Below, piece after piece: positions 32,714 to 64,000 of a stretch of DNA of 64,000 bases (positions are counted from its first letter, which is position 1; every line of letters starts with the position of its first letter). The position numbers and the translations under genes were made by a program. Origin of the DNA: an uncultured bacterium (lineage in GTDB: Bacteria > Hydrothermota > UBA3072); the NCBI GenBank assembly GCA_964525555.1, contig CAZGHN010000013.1, positions 1,144 to 65,143 on the forward strand, given 5' to 3'. The notes beneath the pieces were generated by a model. It did no database searches, was not told where the DNA came from, and saw nothing but the letters and a program-made list of their open reading frames with translations.

Positions 32714-34078
32714 ATGGCATCCTTTTATTTCTCGACTCATCTAACAATTAAACAAACTCTAATGAAAAAAATCCTACTCATTTCTTATTTGGTATTTGCC
32801 TTGCTAAGTGCTTCCGGTCAAACAACTATCTCAGTAATTAAACCATACGGTGGAAGAGTTGATTGGCGCACCACCAATAATCAAATAGCTTATGATATGA
32901 CTGACCTTAGTGGTTACTTCAATGTCTACAAAACCGACACAAGCGGTATTCCTACCATTAACATTACAAACAAACCAAATGCGCCGCAGAAACATAAGGG
33001 AAATCCTACTTGGCATCCATCAGGCGATTGGATTATCTTTCAAGCAGAAATCGACACAATTCCAGATCTGCTTGACCCCGTTGCAACCCCAGGAATAGGT
33101 GCCTATAATAATTTGTGGGCGACCGATAGCGCTGGAAATCAATTCTGGCAACTTACTTTTCTTCCTCCAACTTTTCCAGCTACAGGTGTCTTGCACCCGC
33201 ATTTTTCAAATAATGGCACCAAAGTAGTTTGGGCGCAAATGTTAGATAACTCAGGGCCTAATAATAATTGGTTTATAAAGATTGCCGATTTTGTTGTGAC
33301 CTCAGGAGTGCCTTCACTTCAAAACATTCAGACACTTCATCCGGGAACAACATTTCCAACCTTATACGAAACACATGGATTTTCTCCTGGTGATAGTATC
33401 ATTACGTTTTCCTCAACAATAAATAATCCAAGGTTATATGAATGGGATGTATTTACTTATAACCTCAATTCTTCTCAGCTAACAAATTTAACCAACTCAA
33501 CAGACTGGGATGAATTTGCTTCTATTTCACCAGAAGGAACTAAAATAGTTTGGGCTACAAGCAAAAATATCACATGGGATACAGCATATATTGAATCTCT
33601 TAGAATGGAATGGTGGCAAATGGATGTAAATGGAGACAATAAAACTCAACTCACTCATTTCAACACAGTCGGATTTCCCGAATACACCCCGGGTAGAAAT
33701 ACCGCAGCTGATCTTAGCTGGGGAACGACAGGCAATGAGTTTATAGGACTTGTGCAGGGCAATAATCCTGCTTTTGGAAAAGATGTAAAAGTAACAATCA
33801 ATACTACAGGATTGAATGATGTAACAATTGACAATGAAATATTAATTAGAATTTTTCCAAACCCTTTTACATATTTTACAACTTTTTCATTTGGTACCAC
33901 TGTAGTAAATGCTGAGATAAACATTTACAACTCTTGTGGAGAAAAAGTAAAAACAATAAATCATATTTCTGGAGACAGAATATTAATATTTAGAGAAAAT
34001 TTATGTCAAGGGATTTACTTTTATGAATTGAAGCAGGATAAATATATTTTCACCGGCAAGTTACTAATTGTTGACTAA
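32714..34078 (+). CDS. secreted PD40/beta-propeller-like protein with T9SS C-terminal domain
   Basis: Signal peptide; C-terminal …IFPNPFTYFTTFSFG…INIYNSCGEKVKTI…GIYFYELK… CTD. Confidence 0.55.
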   Translation: MASFYFSTHLTIKQTLMKKILLISYLVFALLSASGQTTISVIKPYGGRVDWRTTNNQIAYDMTDLSGYFNVYKTDTSGIPTINITNKPNAPQKHKGNPTWHPSGDWIIFQAEIDTIPDLLDPVATPGIGAYNNLWATDSAGNQFWQLTFLPPTFPATGVLHPHFSNNGTKVVWAQMLDNSGPNNNWFIKIADFVVTSGVPSLQNIQTLHPGTTFPTLYETHGFSPGDSIITFSSTINNPRLYEWDVFTYNLNSSQLTNLTNSTDWDEFASISPEGTKIVWATSKNITWDTAYIESLRMEWWQMDVNGDNKTQLTHFNTVGFPEYTPGRNTAADLSWGTTGNEFIGLVQGNNPAFGKDVKVTINTTGLNDVTIDNEILIRIFPNPFTYFTTFSFGTTVVNAEINIYNSCGEKVKTINHISGDRILIFRENLCQGIYFYELKQDKYIFTGKLLIVD

Positions 34079-34739: not shown

Positions 34740-37752
<3,013 letters not shown>

Positions 37753-48753: not shown

Positions 48754-49821
48754 TTAACCCCTGGCTAAAGAAGCTTCAAACATTTTAGGATTGGATGCTT
48801 TAGAAAGTGCCTCTTCATAATCGACCTGACCTCTAAGGTAAAGCTCCTTTAAATAATCGTCGAGCAACTTCATTCCAAATTGAGCACCGGATTTTATTAT
48901 ATTATAAATTTGCTCTATTTTTCCTTCTCTTATCGCATTGGCAACCCCTTTAGTCCCGATAAGAATTTCATAAGCGCCAATTCTTCCTTCCTCATCAGCC
49001 TTCCTAAGCAACGTCTGAGATACTACGGCTCTGATTGTCGAGGCAAATTGCACTCGAATCTGATGTTGATGTTCGGGTTCAAAAACATCTACTATTCTAT
49101 CAACCGTCTGAGGCGCATCGGGAGTATGAAGAGTTGCAAAAACAAGAGAACCCATTTCTGCCGCATTAAGAGCTTTTTCTATAGTTTCCCTATCCCTCAT
49201 CTCTCCGATCATTATAACGTCCGGATTCTGCCTCATAACTCTTTTCAGAGCTTCTTCAAAGGAACTTGTATCTACACCTATAGCACGTTGTTCAATTACA
49301 CTCTTTTTGTCTTCAAAAACGTACTCGATTGGGTCTTCGATTGTAATAATATGTTTTTTTTCAGTAATGTTTATCTCTTCTATCATAGCAGAAAGAGTTG
49401 TTGACTTGCCGGCTCCTGTCGGACCGGTTACAAGTACAAACCCATGAGAAGAAAGAGCTATATTTTTAAGTATATCAGGCAATTTCCATTCATTTATCGT
49501 TTTAACTTTGATAGGAATAACTCTTACCGCAATGCCTATTTTCCCTCTCTGAAGAAAAACATTCATCCTGAAACGTGCGGACCCGGAAAGTTCATAAGAA
49601 ATATCAAGCTCCCATTCCCTCTTAAAACGTTCCTTTTGTTCATCTGTCATTATCTCGAAAACAAGGTCCTGAATATCTTCCGCAGAAAACGGTTTGTAGC
49701 TCTCTATTCTTTTTAAATTACCCTGGACTCTCACTATAGGTGGTTCATCTGCTTTAAGGTGAAGATCGGATCCGTTAAACTTAAGAACCTCGTTCAAATA
49801 TTGTTCGATTTTAGCGCTCAT
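48754..49821 (-). CDS. pilT: type IV pilus retraction ATPase PilT
   Basis: TGPTGAGKSTT, …GSLVFATLHT…; tandem with its paralog, with a 1-nt gap. Confidence 0.85.
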   Translation of the reverse strand: MSAKIEQYLNEVLKFNGSDLHLKADEPPIVRVQGNLKRIESYKPFSAEDIQDLVFEIMTDEQKERFKREWELDISYELSGSARFRMNVFLQRGKIGIAVRVIPIKVKTINEWKLPDILKNIALSSHGFVLVTGPTGAGKSTTLSAMIEEINITEKKHIITIEDPIEYVFEDKKSVIEQRAIGVDTSSFEEALKRVMRQNPDVIMIGEMRDRETIEKALNAAEMGSLVFATLHTPDAPQTVDRIVDVFEPEHQHQIRVQFASTIRAVVSQTLLRKADEEGRIGAYEILIGTKGVANAIREGKIEQIYNIIKSGAQFGMKLLDDYLKELYLRGQVDYEEALSKASNPKMFEASLARG

Positions 49822-55590: not shown

Positions 55591-56724
55591 GTGAATAACG
55601 TAACGATTAAATTAAACCCATTACATATTGCCTGTATCTTTGCGATTTTTCAAGCTCTATTAATGGCGATTTTCCTTTTTACCAGCAAAAAGGGTAATAA
55701 ACATAGCAACATAATCCTGGGTTTCTGGTTTCTAAGTTTTGCAGTGATGATGTCCTGTTATTTCACTTTAAGCATTGGGGTTTGGCAATACTTCCTAAAT
55801 TATCATAAATCTATTTTCATTGTAAGTCAATTGTCTCTTCTTATTGGGCCTTTATTGTATTTTTATACAAAATCATTATTGGATCAAAATTTTCGTTTTA
55901 GAAGAATTGATTTAAGTCATTTATTGCCATTCATAACAGTTGTTTGTTATATAATCGTAAGACTGATTTTTATAGAACATTTTGCTATTTGGAGGCATCC
56001 CCTAGATGTCTTTAGCAACGGGGCTTTCTTAACTCAAATCTCCGTCTATTACATTTTAATCCTGAATTTATTAAAGTCACATGGAACTTCCATTAAAACA
56101 TTCTTTTACAATAAAAGAGACTTAAAGTATAACTGGATTCGGCTTTTACTTATCGGTTCATTGGTTATATGTATTGCAAAGTTACAATCTCTTTTGATCT
56201 TATTCTTACCGGAAATTCCTAATTGGTGTTCTTATACAGCTACCGTTTACTTTTTATCCTTATTTCTATTCCTTACTTTAGTAGTCTATGTATCTCTAAA
56301 AATACCTGATCTTCATTCATTTAGAAAAAAATATCTAAATTCAGTCTTATCGGGAACAGATAAGCTAAAACTTAAAAATAAATTGTTAGAATATATGGGT
56401 AAAGAAAAACCTTATCTGAATCCAGATTTAAAACTGGATATTCTTGCCCAGAACTTATTAATTCCAGCAAAGTATCTTTCTCAGATCATCAATGAAATGT
56501 TTCATCAAAATTTTTACGATTTTATTAATCAATATCGGGTTAAAGAGTGCATCAACTCCCTGAAGGACGAAAAGAACTCCAGAAAGACTCTCTTAAGCAT
56601 TGCTTTCGAGTGTGGTTTTAATACAAAAGCTACGTTTAATTCCGCATTTAAAAAATTTACAGGAGAAACTCCCACGGAATTCAGAAAAAACAATAATTTA
56701 AATAACAATTTTAATATCAAGTAA
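55591..56724 (+). CDS. membrane-anchored (7-TM) AraC-family transcriptional regulator, copy 1
   Basis: Seven hydrophobic helices in the first ~230 aa; C-terminal AraC HTH (…ECGFNTKATFNSAFKKFTGETPTEFRK); GTG start. Confidence 0.7.
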   Translation: MNNVTIKLNPLHIACIFAIFQALLMAIFLFTSKKGNKHSNIILGFWFLSFAVMMSCYFTLSIGVWQYFLNYHKSIFIVSQLSLLIGPLLYFYTKSLLDQNFRFRRIDLSHLLPFITVVCYIIVRLIFIEHFAIWRHPLDVFSNGAFLTQISVYYILILNLLKSHGTSIKTFFYNKRDLKYNWIRLLLIGSLVICIAKLQSLLILFLPEIPNWCSYTATVYFLSLFLFLTLVVYVSLKIPDLHSFRKKYLNSVLSGTDKLKLKNKLLEYMGKEKPYLNPDLKLDILAQNLLIPAKYLSQIINEMFHQNFYDFINQYRVKECINSLKDEKNSRKTLLSIAFECGFNTKATFNSAFKKFTGETPTEFRKNNNLNNNFNIK

Positions 56725-56904
56725 GAATCGATAAAAAAGTAAAAATTCATCCAGTTTGTCGACATTTTTTCTCCTTTGAATACAATTAACATAATAAGGG
56801 AAAACCCGGGTTAAATTACAAAAAAGCTAATAAATAAGTTGAATGAGGAAATGGAGTTTGCCCTGTGTATCTAATCAGTTTTAGAATTTAAAAGGAGGTT
56901 TAAA

Positions 56905-58110
56905 ATGGTCAGAAAAGAATTGTTGGTTTTTATGTTATTAGGTATTTCATCTTTATGTCATGCTCAGAATCCATCCGGTCCGTACTTCGGACAGACCCCT
57001 CCGGGTTCGACACCGGAAATTTTCGCTCCCGATTTTATCTCGGTTGACGGAAGATTCGAGCAGAATGCCGCTTTTACACCCGACGGCAAAGAATTTTATT
57101 TCAGCACTACAACCAGCAACTGGGACGGGTTTAGCATTTATTATACAAAGGAAATTGATAGTATATGGTCAGATCCTAAACTTGCCGATACGATATTTGG
57201 CTTCTATGGTAATACCGAACCGTTTATAACCAGTGATGGGCAAAGATTGTTTTTCGTTTCACCGCGTCCTTCGGCACCACCATGGAATACAGATATATGG
57301 GTGTGTGAACGTGACGACACGACCTGGTCTTCCCCTGTAAAAGTTGATTCTCCTCTGGTCAGCTCGACCAATAGGGAATGGCATCCCACAGTAAGTCTTG
57401 ATAGTACTTTATATTTTCAATCTTTAAATCGACCCGGTGGCTACGGTGCTGCAGATATATATAAAGCCGAATTGGATAGCGCAGGACAGTATTCGATTGT
57501 TGAGAATCTTGGGGACATTATTAATTCGAGCTACGGAGATGGTGAAGCTACAATCGCTCCCGATGAAAGTTTTCTTATCTTCTCTTCATATAGACCGGGT
57601 TACGGAGAATCTGATATATATATTTCGTTTAACGATAATGACTCTTGGACAACACCAATAAACTTAGGCCCTACAATAAATACAAGCCAGGCGGAATATG
57701 GTATGGCCCTTTCTCCCGATGGCTTATATATGTTTTTTACAAGAAGAGAAGCATGGCAAACTACTGAAGATTCCGATCTCTGGTGGGTCAGTACAAGTTT
57801 TATAGATTCTATAAAAAGCGGAATTGCAATTGAAAATCCAGAATATTTTGAATTAAATCAAAATTATCCCAATCCTTTTTATTCCTCGACTGTGATTTCG
57901 TATTCCTTGTCCAAACCCGCATCGGTGGTAGAACTAAGCGTATATGATGTACTGGGAAGTAAGGTTCGGACTTTTGTTGAGGTAACTCAGGTTGCAGGAA
58001 ACTACAATGTTCTTTTTGATGCAAAAAATCTTTCGGCAGGGGTATATTTCTACAATCTGAGTGTCGATGAGGTCCTTTCCGAAAAGAAGAAAATGCTGTT
58101 TTTACGATAG
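56905..58110 (+). CDS. secreted PD40/TolB-like beta-propeller protein with T9SS C-terminal domain, copy 1
   Basis: Signal peptide; repeated …PDG.…FF.S.R… PD40-like blades; C-terminal NYPNPFYSSTVISYSLSKPASVVELSVYDVLGSKV…AGVYFYNLSV…KKKMLFLR; strong RBS AAAGGAGG. Confidence 0.65.
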   Translation: MVRKELLVFMLLGISSLCHAQNPSGPYFGQTPPGSTPEIFAPDFISVDGRFEQNAAFTPDGKEFYFSTTTSNWDGFSIYYTKEIDSIWSDPKLADTIFGFYGNTEPFITSDGQRLFFVSPRPSAPPWNTDIWVCERDDTTWSSPVKVDSPLVSSTNREWHPTVSLDSTLYFQSLNRPGGYGAADIYKAELDSAGQYSIVENLGDIINSSYGDGEATIAPDESFLIFSSYRPGYGESDIYISFNDNDSWTTPINLGPTINTSQAEYGMALSPDGLYMFFTRREAWQTTEDSDLWWVSTSFIDSIKSGIAIENPEYFELNQNYPNPFYSSTVISYSLSKPASVVELSVYDVLGSKVRTFVEVTQVAGNYNVLFDAKNLSAGVYFYNLSVDEVLSEKKKMLFLR

Positions 58111-58361
58111 AAAGTGATTGTTGTCGATCAGGCCGCATATTTGAGATGACAGAAAAACCGTAAGCGAGCCTTCTCAGATATACGGCCTGATATATATTGT
58201 CACAGAAACCCGTAGTTTTCTTTACTGCCAGTTGTTTTTTAATTCATAACTCTTATCCCTTTCCAATTCAAAATTCAACACTCAAAATTAAAAATTATCA
58301 ATCGGTGCGAAGCATCCCCACCCCCTTGACATATTACCCTATTTTCGGGTATAATATAAAT
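58111..58361 (+). repeat. conserved intergenic module (stem-loop + AT-rich TTCAAAATT repeats + TCGGTGCGAAGC + TTGACA-18-TATAAT), copy 1
   Basis: Near-identical sequence recurs at 60914-61162 and 63610-63947. Confidence 0.8.
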
Positions 58362-59498
58362 ATGAATGTGGTAATGATTAATTTAAATCTAATAGACATT
58401 GCCTGTGTTATTGCGATCTTTCAGGCTTTGTTAATGGCTGTTTTCTTTTTTACCAGCAAAAAGGGTAGGAAACAGAGCAACATAATTTTAGGATTCTGGC
58501 TTTTAAGTTTTGCAATTATTCTAACCAGTTACTTTCTTGTAAGTTATTGGGTTTGGCAATACTTCCTAAATTATCATAAATCTATTTTCGTTTTAAGTCA
58601 ATTTTCCCTTCTGATTGGACCTCTATTATACTTTTATACACTGTCGTTATTAGACGAAAAATTTCGTTTCCGAAAGAGAGATTTAATTCACTTATTACCA
58701 TTTGTAATTCTTACTTTTTATTTAATGGTCAGATTTATTTTTATCAGTGATTTTACAATTATTGAGAGTTTTTCGGATTTCCTTTGTAATGGCCTCTTTT
58801 TAGTACAGAACCTATTCTATTACATTCTAATTTTGAAGTTATTAAAGTTACATGAACTTTCTATAAAAACATTCTTCGCCAATAAAAGAGATTTAAAGTA
58901 TAATTGGATCCGGTTTTTAATGATCGGCTCATTTGTTATATGGATCGCAAAGTTGCAATCTTTTTTATTCTGGTTAAAACCAGTAAATCCTAGTTGGTGT
59001 TGTTACACGTCTACAGCTTGTTTTTTGGCCGCATTTTTATTTGTTAATTCGATAGTTTATATATCTTTAAAAATACCTAATCTTTTTTTGTTTAACAAAA
59101 AATATGTGTATTCAAGTTTATCGGAAACAGATAAACTGAATTTGAAAACTCAATTGTTAAAATATATGAACGAAGAAAAGCTTTATCTGGATCCAAATTT
59201 AAATTTAGAAACGCTTGCAAAAAAAATATCGGTTACCAGAGAACATCTTTCGCAAATCATAAATGAAATGTGTAATCAAAATTTTTACGATTTTGTTAAT
59301 CAATATCGTGTCAAGGAATGCATCGGCTGCTTAAAAGATGGAAATAATGGCAAGAAAACTCTTCTGCGAATCGCCCTCGAATGCGGTTTTAGCTCAAAGG
59401 CTACCTTCAATTCCGCCTTCAAAAAATTCACAGGAGTGACTCCAAAAGAATTCAGAAACGGAAACTTTAGTTTCAAGGAAGAATTAATAAAAAGATAA
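58362..59498 (+). CDS. 7-TM AraC-family transcriptional regulator, copy 2
   Basis: Aligns with copies 1 and 3 from MNVVMINLNLIDIACVIAIFQALLMA…; ATG lies 6 nt after the -10 hexamer (leaderless); the ORF-track start at 58197 is rejected. Confidence 0.7.
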   Translation: MNVVMINLNLIDIACVIAIFQALLMAVFFFTSKKGRKQSNIILGFWLLSFAIILTSYFLVSYWVWQYFLNYHKSIFVLSQFSLLIGPLLYFYTLSLLDEKFRFRKRDLIHLLPFVILTFYLMVRFIFISDFTIIESFSDFLCNGLFLVQNLFYYILILKLLKLHELSIKTFFANKRDLKYNWIRFLMIGSFVIWIAKLQSFLFWLKPVNPSWCCYTSTACFLAAFLFVNSIVYISLKIPNLFLFNKKYVYSSLSETDKLNLKTQLLKYMNEEKLYLDPNLNLETLAKKISVTREHLSQIINEMCNQNFYDFVNQYRVKECIGCLKDGNNGKKTLLRIALECGFSSKATFNSAFKKFTGVTPKEFRNGNFSFKEELIKR

Positions 59499-59735
59499 TA
59501 ATCCATTTGTCTTGGTCCTCTAAAAAGTAGAAATACTACTCAATAACTTTTTTAATATCATATAAAAAATCTATAAAAAGGTGTGCCTACATGTAGTTTG
59601 TCGACAACGTTTTGTCTTTTTATTATAATTGTAAAAAAAGGAGAAAACCGTCTTAAATGGCTATCTTAATAAAGTACTGTGATATAAAGAAAAAGTTTTG
59701 GCCGAATTTAAAAACCAATAAAAGGAGGTTTAAAA

Positions 59736-60913
59736 TGGTTAGAAAAAGATTGTTTATGGTTTTATTTTTAGTTTTTTCGTGGGTTTGTTTCGCTCAGGAC
59801 TATTTTGGGCAAACTCCACCCGGTGACTCAGCCATAGTTTTTGCTCCCGGCATAGTTTCGTTAGAAGGCAGGTATGAGTATTGTCCTGCGTTCTCTCCCG
59901 ACGGCAATCAATTTTACTTCGGAGTAACAAACTCGAATTGGAGCCATTGTGATATATGGGTTACAGAATATAGAGATAGCCAATGGACAACCCAGGAAAA
60001 GGTTTCTATACTGGACAGTCTTGATGGCTGGATCCCCTACATCAGTCCTGATGGAGCAACGTTTTATCTTAGTTCAGCTTATCCATCATGGCCACCCGCT
60101 AACATATGGAAATGTGACATAATAAATGACACCCTGAAAAACTTAACAAAACTTGATGCTCCCATAAACTCTAATTCTAATGAATGGAGGGTGGGCGTTA
60201 GTAATGATAGTATGATGGTTTTTTGTTCAAACAGAAGTGGTACCTTGGGCGAGCAGGATTTGTATTATGCGATTCCGGATGGAGGGACCTATACAACTGC
60301 AATAAACTTTGGCGACCCTGTAAATAGCAGCTATAACGATGCTTCGGTTTATATAGCTCCGAACGGAAGTTACATCATGTTTGAATCGGAAAGACCGGGT
60401 GGTTATGGTCAGTCAGATATCTATATTTCCTTTAAAGTAGATGATAGTACATGGTCAAACCCACAAAACATGGGCCCAACTATTAACACTTCATATATCG
60501 AAGATCTACCTTCTATAACACCCGATGGTCAATATCTAATGTTTTGCAGGAGAGAAGCATGGGTAACGTCGGAAGATACCGATATTTGGTGGATTAGCGC
60601 AAGCATTATTGATTCTTTACAAAGCGGCATTGATCTTCCGGAATCCCGAAATTTCAAATTGAGTCAAAACTATCCTAACCCTTTTAACTCCAGAACTGTG
60701 ATTTCGTACTCTATATCCAAACCCGCATCGGTAGAATTAAATGTATACGATGTTCTGGGGAATAAGGTCCGGACTTTGGTTAATGAAACCCAGTCAGCAG
60801 GGGACTATGATGTCCCCTTTGATGCAAATAATCTTTCAGCAGGTGTTTATTTCTGTAAGCTGAGTGTCGATGGGGTCTTTTCAGAAAAGAAGAAAATGTT
60901 GTTTTTGCGTTAG
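59736..60913 (+). CDS. secreted PD40-like beta-propeller protein with T9SS CTD, copy 2
   Basis: Start chosen at MVRKRLFMVLFLVFS… after RBS AAAGGAGG, same as copy 1; CTD …NYPNPFNSRTVISYSISKPASVELNVYDVLGNKV…KKKMLFLR. Confidence 0.65.
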
Positions 60914-61162
60914 GTGACGATTGTTGATCAGGTCGTATATTTGAGATGACAGAAAAACCGTAAGCGAGCCTTCTCAGATATGCGGCCTGATATATATTGT
61001 CACAGAAACCCGGAGTTTTCTTTACTGCCAGCTGTTTTTTAATTCATAACTCTTATCCCTTTCCAATTCAAAATTCAACACTCAAAATTAAAAATTATCA
61101 ATCGGTGCGAAGCATCCCCTCCCCCTTGACATCCCACCCTGTTTCCGAGTATAATATAAAAA
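60914..61162 (+). repeat. conserved intergenic module, copy 2
   Basis: Over 85% identical to 58111-58361 by eye, including the promoter TTGACA(61126)-18-TATAAT(61150). Confidence 0.8.
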
Positions 61163-62296
61163 ATGAATAATATAGTAATTAAATTAAGTCTAATAGATAT
61201 TGCCTGTATTGTTGCCCTTTTTCAAGCTCTATTAATGGCTATTTTCCTTTTTACCAGCAAAAAGGGTAATAGGCAGAGTAATAGAATTTTAGGTTTCTGG
61301 CTTTTAAGTTTTACAATTCTAATGGGTTCTTCTTTCCTTTTGAGTTATGGGGTTTCGGATTACTTCATGAATTATCATAAATTAATTTTCGTTATGAGTA
61401 AATTTTCTCTGTTAATTGCCCCGCTATTTTACTTCTATATACTATCCTTATTGAACGAAAATTTTCGTTTTAGAAAAATAGATTTAGTTCACTTATTACC
61501 GATGATAATTATTATCTGTTACAGCAGTATCAAATTTATTTTTATAACAGATTTTATCATCTGGAAGAGTTTTCTTGATTTCTTTTGTGATGGGCTTTTC
61601 TTACTTCAAAATTTATTCTATTACTTTCTGGTCTTGAAAATATTAAAGTCACATGGGATTTCAATCAAGACATTCTTCTCCGGTAGAATGGGTCTAAAGT
61701 ATAATTGGATTCGTTTTCTAATCATTGGCTCATTTGTTGTATGGATTGCAAAGTTACAATCTTTTACATTAAAGATCATAGCAAGAGGCGTAAAGTGGTG
61801 TGTTTATTCGGCAACCTCCTATTTTATGGCGTTGTTTTTATTTGTTACTTTGATAATCTATGTCTCTCTCAAAACACCCGTTTTCCTTTTGTTCAAGAAA
61901 AAATACGTAAATTCAAATTTGTCGAAAAAGGATAAATTAAAACTTAAAAACCAATTGTTAAAATATATGAACGAGGAAAAACTTTATCTGGATCCAACCT
62001 TAAGTTTAGACATACTTGCAAAGAAATTATCAGTTTTACCAAAACATCTTTCTCAGATTGTAAATGAAATGTTTCTTCAAAATTTCAATGATTTCGTTAA
62101 TCAATATCGTGTTAAGGAGTGTATTAACTGCCTAAAGGATGAAAACAACGGCGAAAAGACTCTGCTCCGAATTGCTTTTGAGTGTGGTTTCAATACAAAG
62201 GCTACGTTTAATGCTGCGTTTAAAAAATTTGCCGGAGTAACTCCTAAAGAGTTCAGAAAAAATAATCACTTAAATAATGATTTCAATGTCAAGTAA
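61163..62296 (+). CDS. 7-TM AraC-family transcriptional regulator, copy 3
   Basis: MNNIVIKLSLIDIACIVALFQALLMAIFLFTSKKGN…; AraC HTH at the C-terminus; ATG 7 nt after the -10 (leaderless). Confidence 0.7.
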   Translation: MNNIVIKLSLIDIACIVALFQALLMAIFLFTSKKGNRQSNRILGFWLLSFTILMGSSFLLSYGVSDYFMNYHKLIFVMSKFSLLIAPLFYFYILSLLNENFRFRKIDLVHLLPMIIIICYSSIKFIFITDFIIWKSFLDFFCDGLFLLQNLFYYFLVLKILKSHGISIKTFFSGRMGLKYNWIRFLIIGSFVVWIAKLQSFTLKIIARGVKWCVYSATSYFMALFLFVTLIIYVSLKTPVFLLFKKKYVNSNLSKKDKLKLKNQLLKYMNEEKLYLDPTLSLDILAKKLSVLPKHLSQIVNEMFLQNFNDFVNQYRVKECINCLKDENNGEKTLLRIAFECGFNTKATFNAAFKKFAGVTPKEFRKNNHLNNDFNVK

Positions 62297-62448
62297 GAGC
62301 TGATAAGAAAGTAAAATTTCATAACTTTTGTCGACTTTTCTCCCCCTTTTTGATATCATGACTAAAAGGGGAAAAATCCCGACTTAATAAAACATAAGTA
62401 TTTTCCCCCGCATACTTGGCGAAAAATAAAACCTAAAAGGAGGGTTAT

Positions 62449-63609
62449 ATGTTTAACAAGAAGTTGTATGTTGCTTTATTGCTGGGGGTCTCAATAGTAA
62501 GTTTTGCTCAGATTCCCGATGGCCCTTATCTTGGGCAGACCCCGCCAGGTTCGACACCGGAGGTTTTCGCTCCCGCTCTTGTTTCTATAATCGGCAGAAG
62601 AGACACAAAAGCAGTATTTTCACCAGATGGACAGGAATGTTTCATCGGAACAGTCATAAGTCACACATTTACACTTTTATATACAAAAATAGACTCCGGA
62701 CATTGGTTAGACTTTGCAGATGCAAACTTTTTGAGTGTAACTGGAAAACGAGAACCTTTTATTACGCCAGACGGGGAGAAACTCTTTTTTATAGGAGATT
62801 GGGCGGATGTCTACGTTTCGACAAAATCAGGAAACCAATGGTCGGCAGCTTCTAAAGTGGGCAATCCCATCAGCACAGGTGCAGAAGAATGGCATCCAAC
62901 AGTGACTTTGGATGGTACATTATATTTCTGTTCAACCAGAGACGGAGACTATTTTATTTATCGCTCCAGATTAAATGAGGGGGAATACACCGAGGTAGAA
63001 AAACTGGACAGCACAATAAATTCTCCTTCATACGGTGCCTGGGATCCTTATATTTCTCCCGACGAAAGTTATATGATATTCAGCTCCGAGCGTCCGGGTG
63101 GCTATGGTAATGTCGATCAATATATCAGTTACTTAAGCGAAGATAGCATATGGAGTGAACCGCAAAATCTTGGATCGGTAATCAATACAAGTGCTATAGA
63201 ATATGGCTCATATGTAAGCTATGACGGAAATTACTTCTTTTTTAGCAGGCCGGAAGGCTGGGGACCGGATATAGAGGCTGATATTTTTTGGGTAGATACT
63301 GCTGCCATACCAGCGGGAATAAATGACTTCAATGAACTCCCAAACAATTTTAAATTGAGACAAAATTACCCCAACCCTTTTAATTCCAGGACTGTGATTT
63401 CTTATTCTATATCCAAACCCGCATCTGTAGAACTAAACGTGTATGATGTACTTGGAACTAAAGTCCGGACTTTAGTTAATGAATGCCAGGATGCAGGGAA
63501 CCATGAGGTTCCTTTTGACCCGAAGAACCTTTCAGCAGGTGTTTATTTTTATAAGTTGAGTGTAGATGGAGGGTCTTCAGAAAAAAAGAAGATGCTGTTT
63601 TTACGATAG
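62449..63609 (+). CDS. secreted PD40-like beta-propeller protein with T9SS CTD, copy 3
   Basis: Shares the N-terminal …GPYLGQTPPGSTPEVFAP… and C-terminal CTD with copies 1 and 2. Confidence 0.65.
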   Translation: MFNKKLYVALLLGVSIVSFAQIPDGPYLGQTPPGSTPEVFAPALVSIIGRRDTKAVFSPDGQECFIGTVISHTFTLLYTKIDSGHWLDFADANFLSVTGKREPFITPDGEKLFFIGDWADVYVSTKSGNQWSAASKVGNPISTGAEEWHPTVTLDGTLYFCSTRDGDYFIYRSRLNEGEYTEVEKLDSTINSPSYGAWDPYISPDESYMIFSSERPGGYGNVDQYISYLSEDSIWSEPQNLGSVINTSAIEYGSYVSYDGNYFFFSRPEGWGPDIEADIFWVDTAAIPAGINDFNELPNNFKLRQNYPNPFNSRTVISYSISKPASVELNVYDVLGTKVRTLVNECQDAGNHEVPFDPKNLSAGVYFYKLSVDGGSSEKKKMLFLR

Positions 63610-63947
63610 AAAGTGATTGTTGTCGATCAGACCGCATATTTGAGATGACAGCAAAACCGTAAGCGAGCCTTCTCAGATATGCGGCCTGATTTTTTGCAAC
63701 AAAAACACGAAGATAAGCCGCTGTCGGCCAATCGACGAGCATCTAATTGTAAATTTAAAATTTAGAAAAGGAAATAGAATCTGTATTTATTTGCGTTCTA
63801 ATCGTGTTTTTAAATTCAAAATTCATAATTCAACATCCAAAATTAACATCGTTCAACATTCAAAATTATCAATCGGTGCGAAGCATTCCCTCCCCCTTGA
63901 CATCTTACCCTATTTTCAAGTATACTATTAACAAAACGGAGGGAATT
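63610..63947 (+). repeat. conserved intergenic module, copy 3 (followed by a different gene with a leader and RBS)
   Basis: Same stem-loop, TTCAAAATT repeats, TCGGTGCGAAGC and TTGACAT elements; then ACGGAGGG RBS and an ATG at 63948. Confidence 0.7.
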
Positions 63948-64000
63948 ATGTTTGAATTACCTGAAATTGTGAATTTTACAAAACAATTTAATGAAACTTT
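63948..64000 (+). CDS. 5' fragment of a gene (MFELPEIVNFTKQFNET…), truncated by the window end
   Basis: ATG 8 nt after a GGAGGG RBS downstream of the copy-3 promoter module. Confidence 0.3.
   Translation, partial: MFELPEIVNFTKQFNET

What the first reader, a model, noticed from the sequence alone, without database searches (positions are those of the whole stretch)
55591..63609. Triplicated two-gene cassette: 7-TM AraC-type regulator + T9SS-secreted PD40 beta-propeller protein
Three consecutive, co-oriented copies of the same gene pair sit at 55591-58110, 58362-60913 and 61163-63609. Each pair is a membrane-embedded (7 predicted TM helices) AraC-family regulator followed by a secreted TolB/PD40-like beta-propeller carrying a type IX secretion C-terminal sorting domain. 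The copies are diverged paralogs, roughly 50-60% identical by eye, while the spacers between them are much more conserved than the genes. A one-component membrane sensor-regulator repeatedly paired with a T9SS cargo suggests a modular signalling or surface-display system. One reading is that the secreted propeller is the regulated output; another is that it is a co-sensor. It could also be a contingency locus generated by tandem duplication. I do not recognise this as a described system. A fourth, unpaired PD40/T9SS paralog sits at 32714-34078.
Basis: partly seen in the sequence, partly recalled or inferred. Interest (0 to 1): 0.8.

Follow-up and report, generated by a model that had tools for sequence, protein, structure and literature searches.

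The report
Three tandem membrane-sensor regulator/secreted-propeller gene pairs
Three diverged copies of a gene pair sit head to tail: a DNA-binding regulator built into the membrane through a seven-helix, receptor-like domain, followed by the secreted propeller protein it most likely switches on; the regulator belongs to a very large family for which I found no published study.

Summary
Three co-oriented units of about 2.8 kb each encode a seven-transmembrane (7TM) AraC-type regulator (R1-R3, 64-68% identical) and a signal-peptide/PD40 propeller/T9SS-tail protein (P1-P3, 47-54% identical). The spacers between units are 94-100% identical.

- **A conserved operator links regulator to propeller.** A two-part site overlaps the −35 of each propeller promoter. 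A matrix trained only on other genomes ranks two of the three window sites 2nd and 6th of about 128,000 positions.
- **The regulated-output reading is favoured** over the co-sensor reading.
- **The propeller partner is specific to a subclade.** Family-wide, the neighbour is usually some exported protein.
- **Copy number varies among relatives** at the same dapA-fpg locus.
- **Each spacer is a hairpin plus a consensus promoter.** The spacer and the sorting-domain coding ends show concerted evolution.

No experiments were done.

The parts
55591..56724 (+). R1: 377-aa regulator with a 7TM domain and an AraC-type DNA-binding domain. GTG start; only 87 nt after dapA, with no strong promoter of its own.
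   Evidence: ORF; Pfam HTH_18 at residues 285-366; 7 TM helices; upstream sequence.
56733..56786 (+). Candidate operator (56733-56766, AAAAAAGTAAAAATTCATCCAGTTTGTCGACATT) overlapping the -35 of the P1 promoter (TCGACA-16-TACAAT, 56759-56786).
   Evidence: Conserved block in alignment A6; promoter scan 10/12; matrix trained on other genomes ranks it 2nd in the window, score 10.7.
56905..58110 (+). P1: signal peptide, PD40 beta-propeller and T9SS type A C-terminal sorting domain; AAGGAGG ribosome-binding site.
58127..58191 (+). Long hairpin directly after the P1 stop: a stem of about 20 bp with a 25-nt loop; terminator-like.
   Evidence: Fold z = -5.1 and -4.9; repeat family D8.
58265..58296 (+). 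Degenerate heptamer tract, (AATTCAA) x 4.6, upstream of the spacer promoter.
   Evidence: TRF; 97% identical tract upstream of a consensus promoter in L166.
58326..58355 (+). Consensus promoter TTGACA-18-TATAAT whose -10 ends 6 nt before the R2 ATG, so the R2 mRNA is inferred to be leaderless or nearly so.
   Evidence: Promoter scan 12/12; geometry.
58362..59498 (+). R2: 378-aa 7TM-AraC regulator. The public annotation uses an over-extended 433-aa ORF starting at 58197.
59575..59629 (+). Candidate operator (59575-59608) overlapping the -35 of the P2 promoter (TCGACA-17-TATAAT, 59601-59629).
   Evidence: 11/12; rank 6, score 6.0.
59735..60913 (+). P2: signal peptide, PD40 propeller and T9SS sorting domain.
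   Evidence: (repeat D11 fixes the ATG).
60927..60991 (+). Hairpin after P2 (copy 2).
   Evidence: Fold z = -6.2; repeat D8.
61065..61096 (+). Heptamer tract, copy 2.
61126..61155 (+). Consensus promoter TTGACA-18-TATAAT whose -10 ends 7 nt before the R3 ATG.
   Evidence: 12/12.
61163..62296 (+). R3: 377-aa 7TM-AraC regulator. It is the orthologue (73%) of the single regulator at the syntenic locus L081.
62305..62359 (+). Candidate operator (62305-62338) overlapping the -35 of the P3 promoter (TCGACT-17-TATCAT, 62331-62359). This is the weakest of the three sites.
   Evidence: 9/12; score 2.8, against a 99.99th percentile of 3.0.
62449..63609 (+). P3: signal peptide, PD40 propeller and T9SS sorting domain; orthologue (73%) of the L081 propeller.
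63626..63690 (+). Hairpin after P3 (copy 3), here followed by a run of T.
   Evidence: Fold z = -6.4; sequence.
63812..63844 (+). Heptamer tract, copy 3.
63897..63926 (+). Third copy of the spacer promoter (TTGACA-18-TATACT). Here it drives the next gene through a normal leader with a GGAGGG ribosome-binding site.
   Evidence: 11/12.
63948..64000 (+). Start of the fpg-like (Fapy-DNA glycosylase) gene, which marks the right-hand boundary of the variable locus; cut off by the window end.
   Evidence: MFELPEIVNFTKQFNE here versus MFELPEITNFAKQFNE in the L081 PF01149 gene.

Best explanation
Each unit is a local, membrane-tethered signal-to-transcription module.

- **Regulator.** R is a one-component regulator. 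Its N-terminal seven-helix bundle sits in the cytoplasmic membrane, with the N-terminus outside. Its C-terminal AraC-type domain sits in the cytoplasm.
- **Sensing (inferred).** The variable, outward-facing half of the bundle receives a cue, most likely a small or lipophilic molecule reachable from the periplasm or membrane. The conserved cytoplasmic half passes the change on to the DNA-binding domain.
- **Output (supported by sequence).** R then binds a two-part operator that overlaps the weak -35 of the promoter immediately downstream and activates the adjacent gene. That gene encodes a signal-peptide-bearing PD40 beta-propeller exported by the type IX secretion system.
- **Why pairs (inferred).** A membrane-tethered regulator searches DNA poorly, so regulator and target stay adjacent.
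- **The array.** Three diverged pairs occupy a variable slot between dapA and fpg. The regulators differ mostly in the outward half of the bundle, and the propellers differ in their cores. This suggests three inputs and three binding or enzymatic specificities. The near-identical DNA-recognition helices and similar operators allow cross-talk between pairs.
- **The spacer.** It is the ancestral 3' flank of a pair: a terminator-like hairpin plus the consensus promoter of the downstream gene. In the array this promoter supplies what is probably constitutive, leaderless expression of R2 and R3.
- **Spacer conservation.** The spacer and the adjoining sorting-domain coding ends are kept alike by functional constraint and by gene conversion.
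For: **Membrane topology and fold**
- Seven hydrophobic helices, with K/R-rich loops on the side that carries the HTH.
- AlphaFold2 pLDDT is 91 for the full length and 87 (pTM 0.88) for the TM domain alone.

**A real and large family**
- The TM-domain profile finds 9,798 cluster representatives at E <= 1e-3. The top 150 are nearly all 360-390 aa.

**Sensor-like conservation pattern**
- The cytoplasmic halves of the helices are more conserved than the periplasmic halves: mean entropy 1.94 vs 2.87, p = 3e-13.
- R1-R3 differ at 54/92 outward positions vs 30/88 inward positions, p = 0.001.

**The target is the downstream gene**
- Each P gene has its own promoter and ribosome-binding site.
- The motif [GT]GTCG[AC][CA], with a GGTnC element 19 bp upstream, occurs in 22/98 regulator-to-neighbour intergenic regions. 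Controls give 4/142 upstream of R and 11/224 in random chunks, p about 1e-5.
- A matrix built from 19 non-window loci ranks the R1-P1 and R2-P2 sites 2nd and 6th of about 128,000 window positions.
- The same matrix scores 7-14 in the untrained relatives L083, L084, L164 and L165. It finds nothing in the spacers or in front of the unpaired propeller in L166.
- The site overlaps the -35, which is the usual position for AraC-type activators (established knowledge).

**Exported neighbours**
- 56/95 co-oriented downstream genes look exported, against 211/675 controls: odds ratio 3.2, p = 3e-7.

**Locus history**
- L081 has one pair and L165 has one R plus two propellers at the same glnA-dapB-dapA...fpg locus.
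- R3/P3 are orthologous to the L081 pair.

**Spacer**
- Hairpin fold z-scores are -5 to -6.4, and the stem is retained with compensatory changes in L165.
- The promoters score 12/12.
- L081 has the same promoter directly before the ATG of its next gene.

**Concerted evolution**
- Sorting domains are 74-84% identical between window paralogues but only 64-69% between orthologues.
- Propeller cores show the reverse: 36-48% between paralogues vs 76-81% between orthologues.
- Third-codon-position identity rises from 0.33-0.46 in the propeller core to 0.56-0.62 in the sorting domain, next to spacers that are 94-100% identical.
Against: - Nothing here is experimental. No ligand, DNA binding, transcription start or secretion has been shown.
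- Foldseek support for the GPCR-like fold is weak (TM-score 0.45-0.59, E >= 7e-3) and includes adiponectin receptors and a rhodopsin. Any 7-helix up-down bundle may give such hits.
- The conserved residues lie at the cytoplasmic face. That could equally mean a cytoplasmic or inner-leaflet signal, or a dimer or DNA-binding-domain interface.
- The R3-P3 operator scores only at the 99.99th percentile, and the L081 orthologue fails the matrix.
- The strict motif is found in only about 22% of family loci.
- The top window hit of the matrix lies inside an unrelated ORF, at 48817.
- R1 has no recognisable promoter or ribosome-binding site.
- The recognition helices of R1-R3 are almost identical, so pair-specific control is not assured.
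- T9SS machinery was not seen, because only 64 kb of the genome is available.
- The evidence that the upstream spacer sequence is unconstrained rests on about 36 nt at a contig end.
Confidence: 0.6

Rival explanations
1. Co-sensor model. The exported neighbour works with the regulator as part of the sensor, as ToxS does for ToxR or VtrC for VtrA. The pair would be one receptor rather than a regulator and its target.
For: The neighbour is encoded directly downstream and is enriched for exported proteins family-wide. Co-component systems with this gene order are known (PMC9214523, found). The periplasmic loops of R are tiny, so an accessory binding protein would be plausible. The commonest partner in the wider family is a small protein of unknown function, DUF6448.
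Against: P1-P3 carry a T9SS sorting domain and should leave the periplasm. A separate promoter with a regulator-type operator lies between R and P, and the genes are 150-236 nt apart rather than coupled. Partner families vary widely: hydrolases, TonB-receptor-like proteins, beta-helix proteins. A P1-type propeller also occurs without a regulator, behind a consensus promoter.
Confidence: 0.12
2. Anchor-and-release model. The 7TM domain mainly sequesters the AraC domain at the membrane, and activity is controlled by proteolysis or by a partner membrane protein such as the neighbouring Rce1-like/CPBP protease, not by ligand binding to the bundle.
For: An Rce1-like gene lies divergently next to R in the syntenic loci L081 and L165 and downstream of R in 4/120 family loci. 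Conservation is concentrated at the cytoplasmic face and in the TM7-HTH linker.
Against: There is no Rce1-like gene next to the window's array. Seven helices with a confidently predicted, family-wide conserved packing exceed what an anchor needs. The outward halves diverge between paralogues, as expected for specificity determinants.
Confidence: 0.13
3. Contingency or variation locus. The array exists mainly to generate diversity or switchable expression of surface propellers, through recombination between repeated flanks and slippage in the heptamer tract. The regulators would be passengers.
For: Copy number and content of the dapA-fpg slot differ among relatives. The sorting-domain ends and spacers evolve in concert while the propeller cores are highly diverged. 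Contigs of the 92%-identical relative break inside the spacer. The (AATTCAA)n tract differs by 14 nt, which is two units, between L166 and L167/L168, and those loci encode an identical propeller.
Against: There are no perfect simple-sequence repeats in coding regions or promoter spacers, and no inverted repeats flanking a promoter. All six genes are intact and under purifying selection, with dN/dS about 0.2-0.3. Each paralogue lineage has orthologues in other genomes, so turnover is slow. There are no recombinase or mobile-element genes in the window.
Confidence: 0.1
4. Annotation artefact. The regulators are ordinary soluble AraC proteins with mis-called starts, and the repeat is a chance or assembly artefact.
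For: One public ORF (R2, 433 aa) is indeed mis-started.
Against: The 240-residue hydrophobic domain is in frame and conserved in thousands of full-length homologues, and it is confidently modelled. The three copies are diverged, so they are not an assembly duplication. A 92%-identical relative has the same dapA-R1-P1 arrangement.
Confidence: 0.01

Closest known systems
TfoS of Vibrio cholerae (membrane-bound AraC-like regulator; PMC3903286)
   Same: It is a one-polypeptide, inner-membrane regulator with a cytoplasmic C-terminal AraC-type helix-turn-helix domain that activates a nearby target directly, without phosphotransfer.
   Different: TfoS senses with a large periplasmic domain and has a single transmembrane helix. 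R1-R3 have seven helices, almost no periplasmic loops, and no sequence relationship outside the HTH domain.
ToxR/CadC/TcpP-type membrane-integrated one-component regulators, and co-component pairs such as ToxR-ToxS and VtrA-VtrC (PMC5936718, PMC9214523)
   Same: The DNA-binding domain is tethered to the membrane, the output is direct transcription, and an exported protein is often encoded next door.
   Different: Those have an N-terminal winged-helix (OmpR-type) domain, one TM helix and a C-terminal periplasmic sensor. The topology and the DNA-binding fold are both different here, and the neighbour here looks like a target rather than a co-receptor.
Bacterial 7TM sensor modules fused to cytoplasmic outputs, e.g. 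E. coli DgcT/CdgI, noted as 'GPCR-like' from predicted structures (PMC10760455)
   Same: A heptahelical membrane domain with little extramembrane mass is fused directly to a cytoplasmic signalling output. The predicted fold resembles GPCR bundles.
   Different: The output there is a diguanylate cyclase, not a DNA-binding domain. No sequence similarity to any named Pfam membrane sensor domain was detected for R1-R3.
Eukaryotic GPCR 7TM bundles (GPRC5D, adhesion and class C GPCRs)
   Different: Identity is 8-15% with no sequence-level hit. Foldseek TM-scores are only 0.45-0.59. There is no G-protein coupling, and homology is not shown.
T9SS type A cargo proteins (TIGR04183/PF18962 C-terminal domain) and TolB-like PD40 propellers
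   Same: P1-P3 have a signal peptide and a C-terminal sorting domain above the curated cutoffs, and that domain matches a solved sorting domain, 8glj_D. PD40 repeats are above the Pfam threshold.
   Different: They are not TolB: 25 bits or less against a 343-bit cutoff, and no TolB N-terminal domain. The function of the propeller is unknown.

Membership tests
AraC/XylS family transcription regulators | C-terminal domain of about 100 residues with two helix-turn-helix motifs (Pfam HTH_18 / HTH_AraC above the gathering score). | tested here: met
   HTH_18 scores 57.8-60.9 bits against a cutoff of 33.6 at residues 285-366 in R1-R3.
AraC/XylS family transcription regulators | Binds DNA and activates transcription from a site next to or overlapping the -35. 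| not testable with these tools
   There is only indirect support: a conserved two-part site overlapping the -35 of each P promoter.
Membrane-integrated one-component regulators of the ToxR type | N-terminal winged-helix DNA-binding domain, a single TM helix and a C-terminal periplasmic sensor domain. | tested here: not met
   The DNA-binding domain is C-terminal and of AraC type. There are seven TM helices and no periplasmic domain.
TfoS-type membrane AraC regulators | A large periplasmic sensor domain followed by one TM helix and a cytoplasmic AraC HTH. | tested here: not met
   Periplasmic loops are 5-9 residues long. The TfoS architecture is taken from PMC3903286.
7TM-AraC family (unnamed; defined here by profile A5) | An N-terminal 7TM domain of about 240 residues with the motif L-x-G-P-L-x-Y-x-Y-x-x-S at the cytoplasmic end of TM3, H110, Y153 and W182, followed by an AraC HTH; total length about 360-390 residues. 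| tested here: met
   Invariant and near-invariant columns. There are 9,798 representatives at E <= 1e-3, and the top 150 nearly all have this architecture.
GPCR superfamily | Seven TM helices, N-terminus outside and C-terminus inside, with GPCR-like helix packing. | tested here: inconclusive
GPCR superfamily | Detectable sequence homology or class-defining motifs. | tested here: not met
   The profile search of all PDB sequences gives no hit at E <= 1. There is no Pfam 7tm family hit at E <= 1.
T9SS type A cargo | N-terminal Sec signal peptide plus a C-terminal sorting domain (TIGR04183 / PF18962) above cutoff. | tested here: met
   TIGR04183 scores 35.3-41.8 bits against a cutoff of 23, and PF18962 scores 34.5-40.7 against 27. 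Signal peptides end in (H/F)AQ. The family profile matches the sorting-domain structure 8glj_D at E = 5e-5.
T9SS type A cargo | The organism encodes the T9SS machinery (SprA/PorV/PorU and so on) and the protein is actually secreted. | not testable with these tools
   Only 64 kb of the genome is available, and no T9SS component appears among the top 25 families listed in the window's Pfam census.
TolB (Tol-Pal system) | TolB equivalog score and the N-terminal alpha/beta domain. | tested here: not met
   TIGR02800 scores 25 bits or less against a cutoff of 343. PDB TolB matches have E of 0.01-0.05, over a few propeller blades only.
Phase-variable contingency locus | Perfect simple-sequence repeats in the coding or promoter-spacer region, or an invertible promoter flanked by inverted repeats with a recombinase. 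| tested here: not met
   There is only a degenerate heptamer tract (80% matches) about 30 nt upstream of the -35. No suitable inverted repeats were found, and no recombinase appears among the top 25 families listed in the window's Pfam census. The heptamer tract is polymorphic in relatives, so milder expression variation is not excluded.
Integron-like gene cassettes | attC hairpins with RYYYAAC / GTTRRRY core sites and a nearby integrase. | tested here: not met
   Reading the hairpin flanks by eye shows no such core sites. No integrase appears among the top 25 families listed in the window's Pfam census. The cassettes carry their own promoters.

The most novel reading that the evidence does not exclude
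The 7TM-AraC proteins could be a very large, unstudied class of bacterial heptahelical receptors, with about 10,000 clusters at 50% identity across Bacteroidota, Ignavibacteriota, other FCB phyla, Leptospira and some Gammaproteobacteria. In this reading a GPCR-like bundle binds an external or membrane ligand and drives transcription directly through a fused AraC domain. The DNA target would be a family-wide operator (GGTnC-N14-GGTCGAC) at the -35 of the neighbouring gene, which usually encodes an exported protein. The triplicated array would then be a natural set of three receptors with different ligand pockets, wired to three secreted propellers.
Probability: 0.4. Interest if true: 0.8.

Novelty: new variant of a known kind. 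Interest (0 to 1): 0.6.

Why it matters
Membrane-tethered one-component regulators are known from a handful of single-pass examples such as ToxR, CadC and TfoS. Here a polytopic, receptor-like 7TM domain is fused to an AraC domain. The family has thousands of members, no domain model, no solved structure, and no publication that I could find.

This work gives it a testable anatomy: topology, conserved cytoplasmic motifs, variable outward half, a candidate operator and a likely target gene. That makes the family directly approachable by reporter assays and ligand screens. It also offers compact 'ligand in, transcription out' parts for biosensor design.

The array is also a clean example of mosaic evolution. 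Functional flanks (sorting domain, terminator, promoter) are homogenised, while the sensing and binding surfaces diverge.

If the mechanism is wrong, the finding reduces to a locally expanded pair of poorly annotated genes.

Tried and rejected
- Look-ups of the NCBI-derived homologues P0004, P0011 and P0012 returned nothing. As a result, the 71.7-kb contig that carries three paralogues (P0004, P0005, P0017) could not be examined.
- The AlphaFold-database fold library was unavailable.
- I tested whether the spacer's A/T tract and the P-promoter box share an 'AAAATTCA' regulator half-site. The 8-mer is absent from two of the three R-P regions, so I dropped the idea.
- I tested whether the regulator 5' ends are homogenised like the sorting-domain ends. 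The signal is weak: 73-76% between paralogues vs 70% between orthologues in the first 50 residues.
- I considered integron attC sites and invertible promoters for the hairpin. There are no core sites, no integrase, and the loop is too short.
- Rfam found no known RNA in the spacers, only one sub-threshold osmY match inside R3.
- A multiple alignment of the hairpins from relatives was poor and uninformative, so I used individual folds instead.
- Seven literature searches found no characterised 7TM-AraC protein. The library lacks most subscription journals, so this is not proof of absence.
- The spacer modules were not found elsewhere in the window.

Full report

Yes. Each odd-numbered one has an AraC-type HTH_18/HTH_AraC domain at residues 285-366 and nothing recognised before it. 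Each even-numbered one has PD40 repeats and a Por_Secre_tail domain above the Pfam thresholds, and also the NCBIfam T9SS type A sorting domain.

Direct-repeat analysis finds three units with start-to-start spacings of 2771 and 2801 nt. Protein identities are 64-68% among the regulators (R1-R3) and 47-54% among the propellers (P1-P3).

The spacer after P1 and the spacer after P2 are 94% identical over 247 nt, and 96-100% identical over their last ~180 nt. A third, more diverged copy follows P3 and leads into a different gene.

Small corrections:
- P2 starts at 59735 (repeat D11).
- The public 433-aa ORF for R2 is over-extended.
- The 'fourth paralog' at 32714-34078 is only about 25% identical. 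It sits next to a glycosyltransferase with no regulator.

**2. The regulators are membrane proteins with a receptor-like seven-helix domain**

- Hydropathy gives seven helices. All K/R-rich loops lie on the side that carries the HTH, so the N-terminus is outside and the DNA-binding domain is in the cytoplasm.
- AlphaFold2 with a 113-sequence alignment gives mean pLDDT 91. The helices span 10-31, 37-59, 65-97, 105-127, 137-163, 178-203 and 212-237, followed by the AraC fold. The TM domain alone gives pLDDT 87 and pTM 0.88.
- The TM domain has no Pfam match even at E <= 1 and no sequence relative in the PDB.
- Foldseek is much weaker (TM-score 0.45-0.59, E >= 7e-3). It also lists adiponectin receptors and a microbial rhodopsin.
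- I therefore claim a GPCR-like heptahelical arrangement, not homology. Similar 'GPCR-like' remarks have been made for the 7TM domains of E. coli DgcT and CdgI (PMC10760455).

**3. The family is very large and apparently unstudied**

- An exhaustive profile search with the TM domain finds 9,798 cluster representatives at E <= 1e-3 and 4,912 at E <= 1e-10. Nearly all of the top 150 are 360-390 residues, which is the same 7TM + AraC architecture. A few have an unrecognised N-terminal extension of about 180 residues.
- Genome hits span Bacteroidota, Ignavibacteriota, Balneolaceae, Calditrichia, KSB1, Acidobacteriota and Leptospira. They also include the gammaproteobacterial genera Colwellia, Cellvibrio, Thalassomonas and Thalassotalea.
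- Seven literature searches found no characterised member.
- The nearest described type is TfoS of Vibrio cholerae, a membrane AraC-like regulator with a large periplasmic domain and one TM helix (PMC3903286).

**4. The conservation pattern suggests a sensor**

- Across 113 family members, the cytoplasmic halves of the helices are much more conserved than the periplasmic halves: mean column entropy 1.94 vs 2.87, p = 3e-13. The periplasmic loops are the most variable parts.
- The invariant residues all lie at or near the cytoplasmic face. They are the LxGPLxYxYxxS motif at the inner end of TM3, H110 at the start of TM4, Y153 in TM5, W182 at the start of TM6, and P239 after TM7.
- R1-R3 differ at 54 of 92 outward-half positions but only 30 of 88 inward-half positions, p = 0.001.
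- I infer that the outward half sets specificity and the inward half couples to the DNA-binding domain. This is inference, not demonstration.

**5. The propeller genes look like the regulated targets**

The R-P intergenic regions of all three copies and of the orthologous locus L081 share three features:
- a conserved block ending in (A/T)GTTTGTCGAC(A/T) at the -35 position;
- a -10-like hexamer 16-17 nt further on;
- an AAGGAGG ribosome-binding site.

The promoter scan scores these promoters at 10/12, 11/12 and 9/12.

The AraC recognition helices are nearly invariant family-wide, so I looked for a shared operator in 95 regulator-to-neighbour intergenic regions from diverse genomes.
- The most enriched 8-mers, apart from start-codon words, are GGTCGAC/GGTCGCA variants.
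- The motif [GT]GTCG[AC][CA] occurs on the coding strand in 22 of 98 regions, counting the three window regions. A second GGTnC element sits 19 bp upstream, and a -10 element follows about 22-25 nt downstream.
- Control rates are 4/142 upstream of the regulators, 11/224 in random chunks and 7/98 on the opposite strand, with p of about 1e-5 to 4e-3.

As an unbiased test, I built a weight matrix from the 19 non-window loci only.
- It ranks the R1-P1 site 2nd and the R2-P2 site 6th among about 128,000 window positions.
- The R3-P3 site scores 2.8, just below the 99.99th percentile of 3.0.
- The untrained relatives L083, L084, L164 and L165 score 7-14.
- The spacers, the L165 Pa-Pb junction and the unpaired propeller in L166 score far below zero.

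A site overlapping the -35 is the classic position for AraC-type activators (established knowledge). This favours the 'regulated output' reading.

**6. How general is the pairing?**

- In 120 wider-family loci the downstream neighbour varies. DUF6448 occurs in 22, T9SS-tail proteins in 8 and alpha/beta-hydrolases in 7. TonB-receptor-like proteins occur in 5, Rce1-like in 4 and DoxX in 4.
- Only two of those loci have a homologous propeller directly downstream.
- A crude signal-peptide test flags 56/95 co-oriented neighbours as exported, against 211/675 control genes from the same loci: odds ratio 3.2, p = 3e-7.
- Within the close subfamily, the regulator-propeller pair recurs in L081, L164 and L165.
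- Some distant regulators are followed by two or three tandem PD40-Ig-sorting-domain genes (L004, L096).
- L082 pairs a close regulator with a T9SS beta-helix protein instead.
- A P1-type propeller also exists without a regulator, behind a consensus promoter (L166).

So the general rule is 'regulator plus adjacent exported protein', and the propeller partner is a subclade feature.

**7. History of the array**

- The window comes from a 73.2-kb NCBI contig, because P0011 is exactly the long R2 ORF.
- The source is probably a WOR-3-like member of the FCB group. Its dapA falls in a 90%-identity cluster with a protein labelled candidate division WOR-3. That label is no more reliable than MAG taxonomy in general.
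- The surrounding genes are core chromosome, with no mobile-element genes among the listed families.
- Two relatives share the flanks glnA-dapB-dapA on the left, and L081 also has fpg on the right. L081 has one R-P pair followed by GH10 and OmdA. L165 has one R followed by two propellers.
- R3/P3 are orthologous to the L081 pair, at 73% for both proteins. P1 is orthologous to the second propeller of L165 (78%), but R1 is not closer to the L165 regulator than R2 or R3 are.
- Each of R1, R2 and R3 groups with proteins from other genomes.
- Synonymous divergence between copies is about 0.7-1.2 for the regulators and saturated for the propeller cores. dN/dS is about 0.2-0.3.

The paralogues are therefore old, and the slot between dapA and fpg gains, loses or swaps cassettes. 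I cannot tell whether the three pairs arose by duplication in place or were brought together by recombination.

**8. What the spacer is, and why it is so conserved**

The spacer consists of four elements:
- a hairpin with a ~20-bp stem and a 25-nt loop, directly after the propeller stop codon (z = -5 to -6.4);
- a degenerate (AATTCAA) x 4.6 tract;
- a G/C-rich block;
- a consensus TTGACA-18-TATAAT promoter, which gives the best promoter matches in the region.

Homology between unit 1 and units 2/3 begins only about 5 nt before the regulator start codon. The -10 ends 6-7 nt before the ATG of R2 and R3, so these mRNAs should be leaderless or nearly so (inferred).

The third copy of the promoter drives the fpg-like gene through a normal leader. 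L081 has a diverged version of the hairpin, and the same promoter directly before the ATG of its next gene. L165 keeps the hairpin as a 19-bp stem with compensatory changes.

So the spacer is the ancestral 3' flank of a pair. Part of its conservation is functional.

Constraint alone does not explain 96-100% identity between the two internal spacers.
- Sorting-domain ends are more alike between window paralogues (74-84%) than between orthologues (64-69%). Propeller cores show the opposite: 36-48% vs 76-81%.
- Third-position identity falls with distance from the spacer.
- The 92%-identical relative appears to have a different sequence upstream of the -35. This rests on only ~36 nt at a contig end.

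I conclude that gene conversion, anchored on the conserved hairpin and promoter, homogenises the spacer and its flanks. This step is inferred.

**9. Rival explanations**

- **Co-sensor model.** It is weakened by the T9SS tail, by the separate operator-bearing promoter and by the variety of partners.
- **Anchor-and-release model.** It draws on the Rce1-like neighbours in L081 and L165, but there is no such gene next to this array.
- **Contingency locus.** It lacks the usual machinery. However, cassette variation, concerted evolution and a 14-nt (two-unit) difference in the heptamer tract are real. That difference lies between L166 and L167/L168, which encode identical propellers.
- **Mis-start artefact.** It is refuted.

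**10. Verdict**

This is a real, triplicated pair of genes. Each pair is best read as a membrane-embedded heptahelical AraC-type one-component regulator plus the T9SS-secreted propeller gene it activates.

The kind of system, a membrane-tethered one-component regulator, is known. This architecture, the size of its family and its operator appear not to have been described. All mechanistic steps beyond the sequence features are inferred.

Noticed in passing
window 34740-37751: A complete 23S rRNA gene stands alone. There is no 16S gene in the 660 nt upstream, where a protein gene ends at 34078. No 5S was detected in the ~880 nt downstream, even at a permissive threshold. The rRNA genes therefore appear to be unlinked in this genome.
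   Followed up: partly
Its upstream neighbour is a family-1 glycosyltransferase, and no regulator or operator was seen there.
   Followed up: partly
window 58265-58296, 61065-61096, 63812-63844; L166 9901-9939; L167 223-243: A degenerate heptamer tract, (AATTCAA) x ~4.6, lies about 30 nt upstream of the -35 of each spacer promoter. A 97%-identical tract precedes the consensus promoter of an unpaired propeller gene in L166. L167/L168 encode the identical protein but lack 14 nt (two units) of the tract. Possible slippage-based tuning of promoter strength was not tested.
   Followed up: partly
window 58197-58361: The public annotation of R2 (433 aa, TTG start) extends 165 nt upstream, across the hairpin-distal spacer and the 12/12 consensus promoter. 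Homology with R1 and R3 and the promoter position put the real start at ATG 58362.
   Followed up: yes
L081 8963-9829 (-), L165 8914-9966 (-): An Rce1-like/CPBP intramembrane protease gene lies divergently next to the regulator in both syntenic relatives, and downstream of the regulator in 4 of 120 wider-family loci. It is absent from the window, where R1 follows dapA after 87 nt. It might be a partner of the membrane regulator.
   Followed up: no
loci L021, L029, L033, L035, L098, L109 (regulator-to-neighbour intergenic regions): DUF6448 is the commonest downstream partner of the family (22 of 120). A group of loci whose neighbours are of DUF6448-like length (about 200-235 aa; family membership not checked per locus) shares an almost identical long operator: GGT(A/G)C(T/C)ACnTTA(C/T)AAnnTAGGTCGCAC, followed by TAnnTTTG. 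This would be a good starting point for defining the family's DNA site.
   Followed up: partly
window about 56798-56810, 59641-59655, 62372-62386: Just downstream of each propeller promoter's -10 there is a small conserved stem-loop, GGG(G)AAAA(A)(U)CCC, at the start of a ~90-118 nt leader. It could be a 5' stabiliser or a regulatory element.
   Followed up: no
window 48817-48850 (- strand): The best operator-matrix hit in the window (score 15.5) lies inside an unrelated 355-aa ORF (48754-49821, - strand). It is probably a chance match, but it shows that the matrix is not fully specific.
   Followed up: no
L004 11553-16163; L096 3957-6842: Distant regulator homologues (33-37% identical) are followed by two or three tandem genes for PD40 propeller + He_PIG Ig domain + T9SS tail. 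Here the target rather than the pair is expanded.
   Followed up: partly
L081 12693-13798: In L081 the gene after the pair is a GH10 xylanase. It appears to start at an upstream ATG (12693) with a lipoprotein-like signal peptide, directly after the conserved promoter, and not at the called start (12758). L082 pairs the regulator with a pectate-lyase-like beta-helix T9SS protein. Both hint at a link to polysaccharide breakdown.
   Followed up: no
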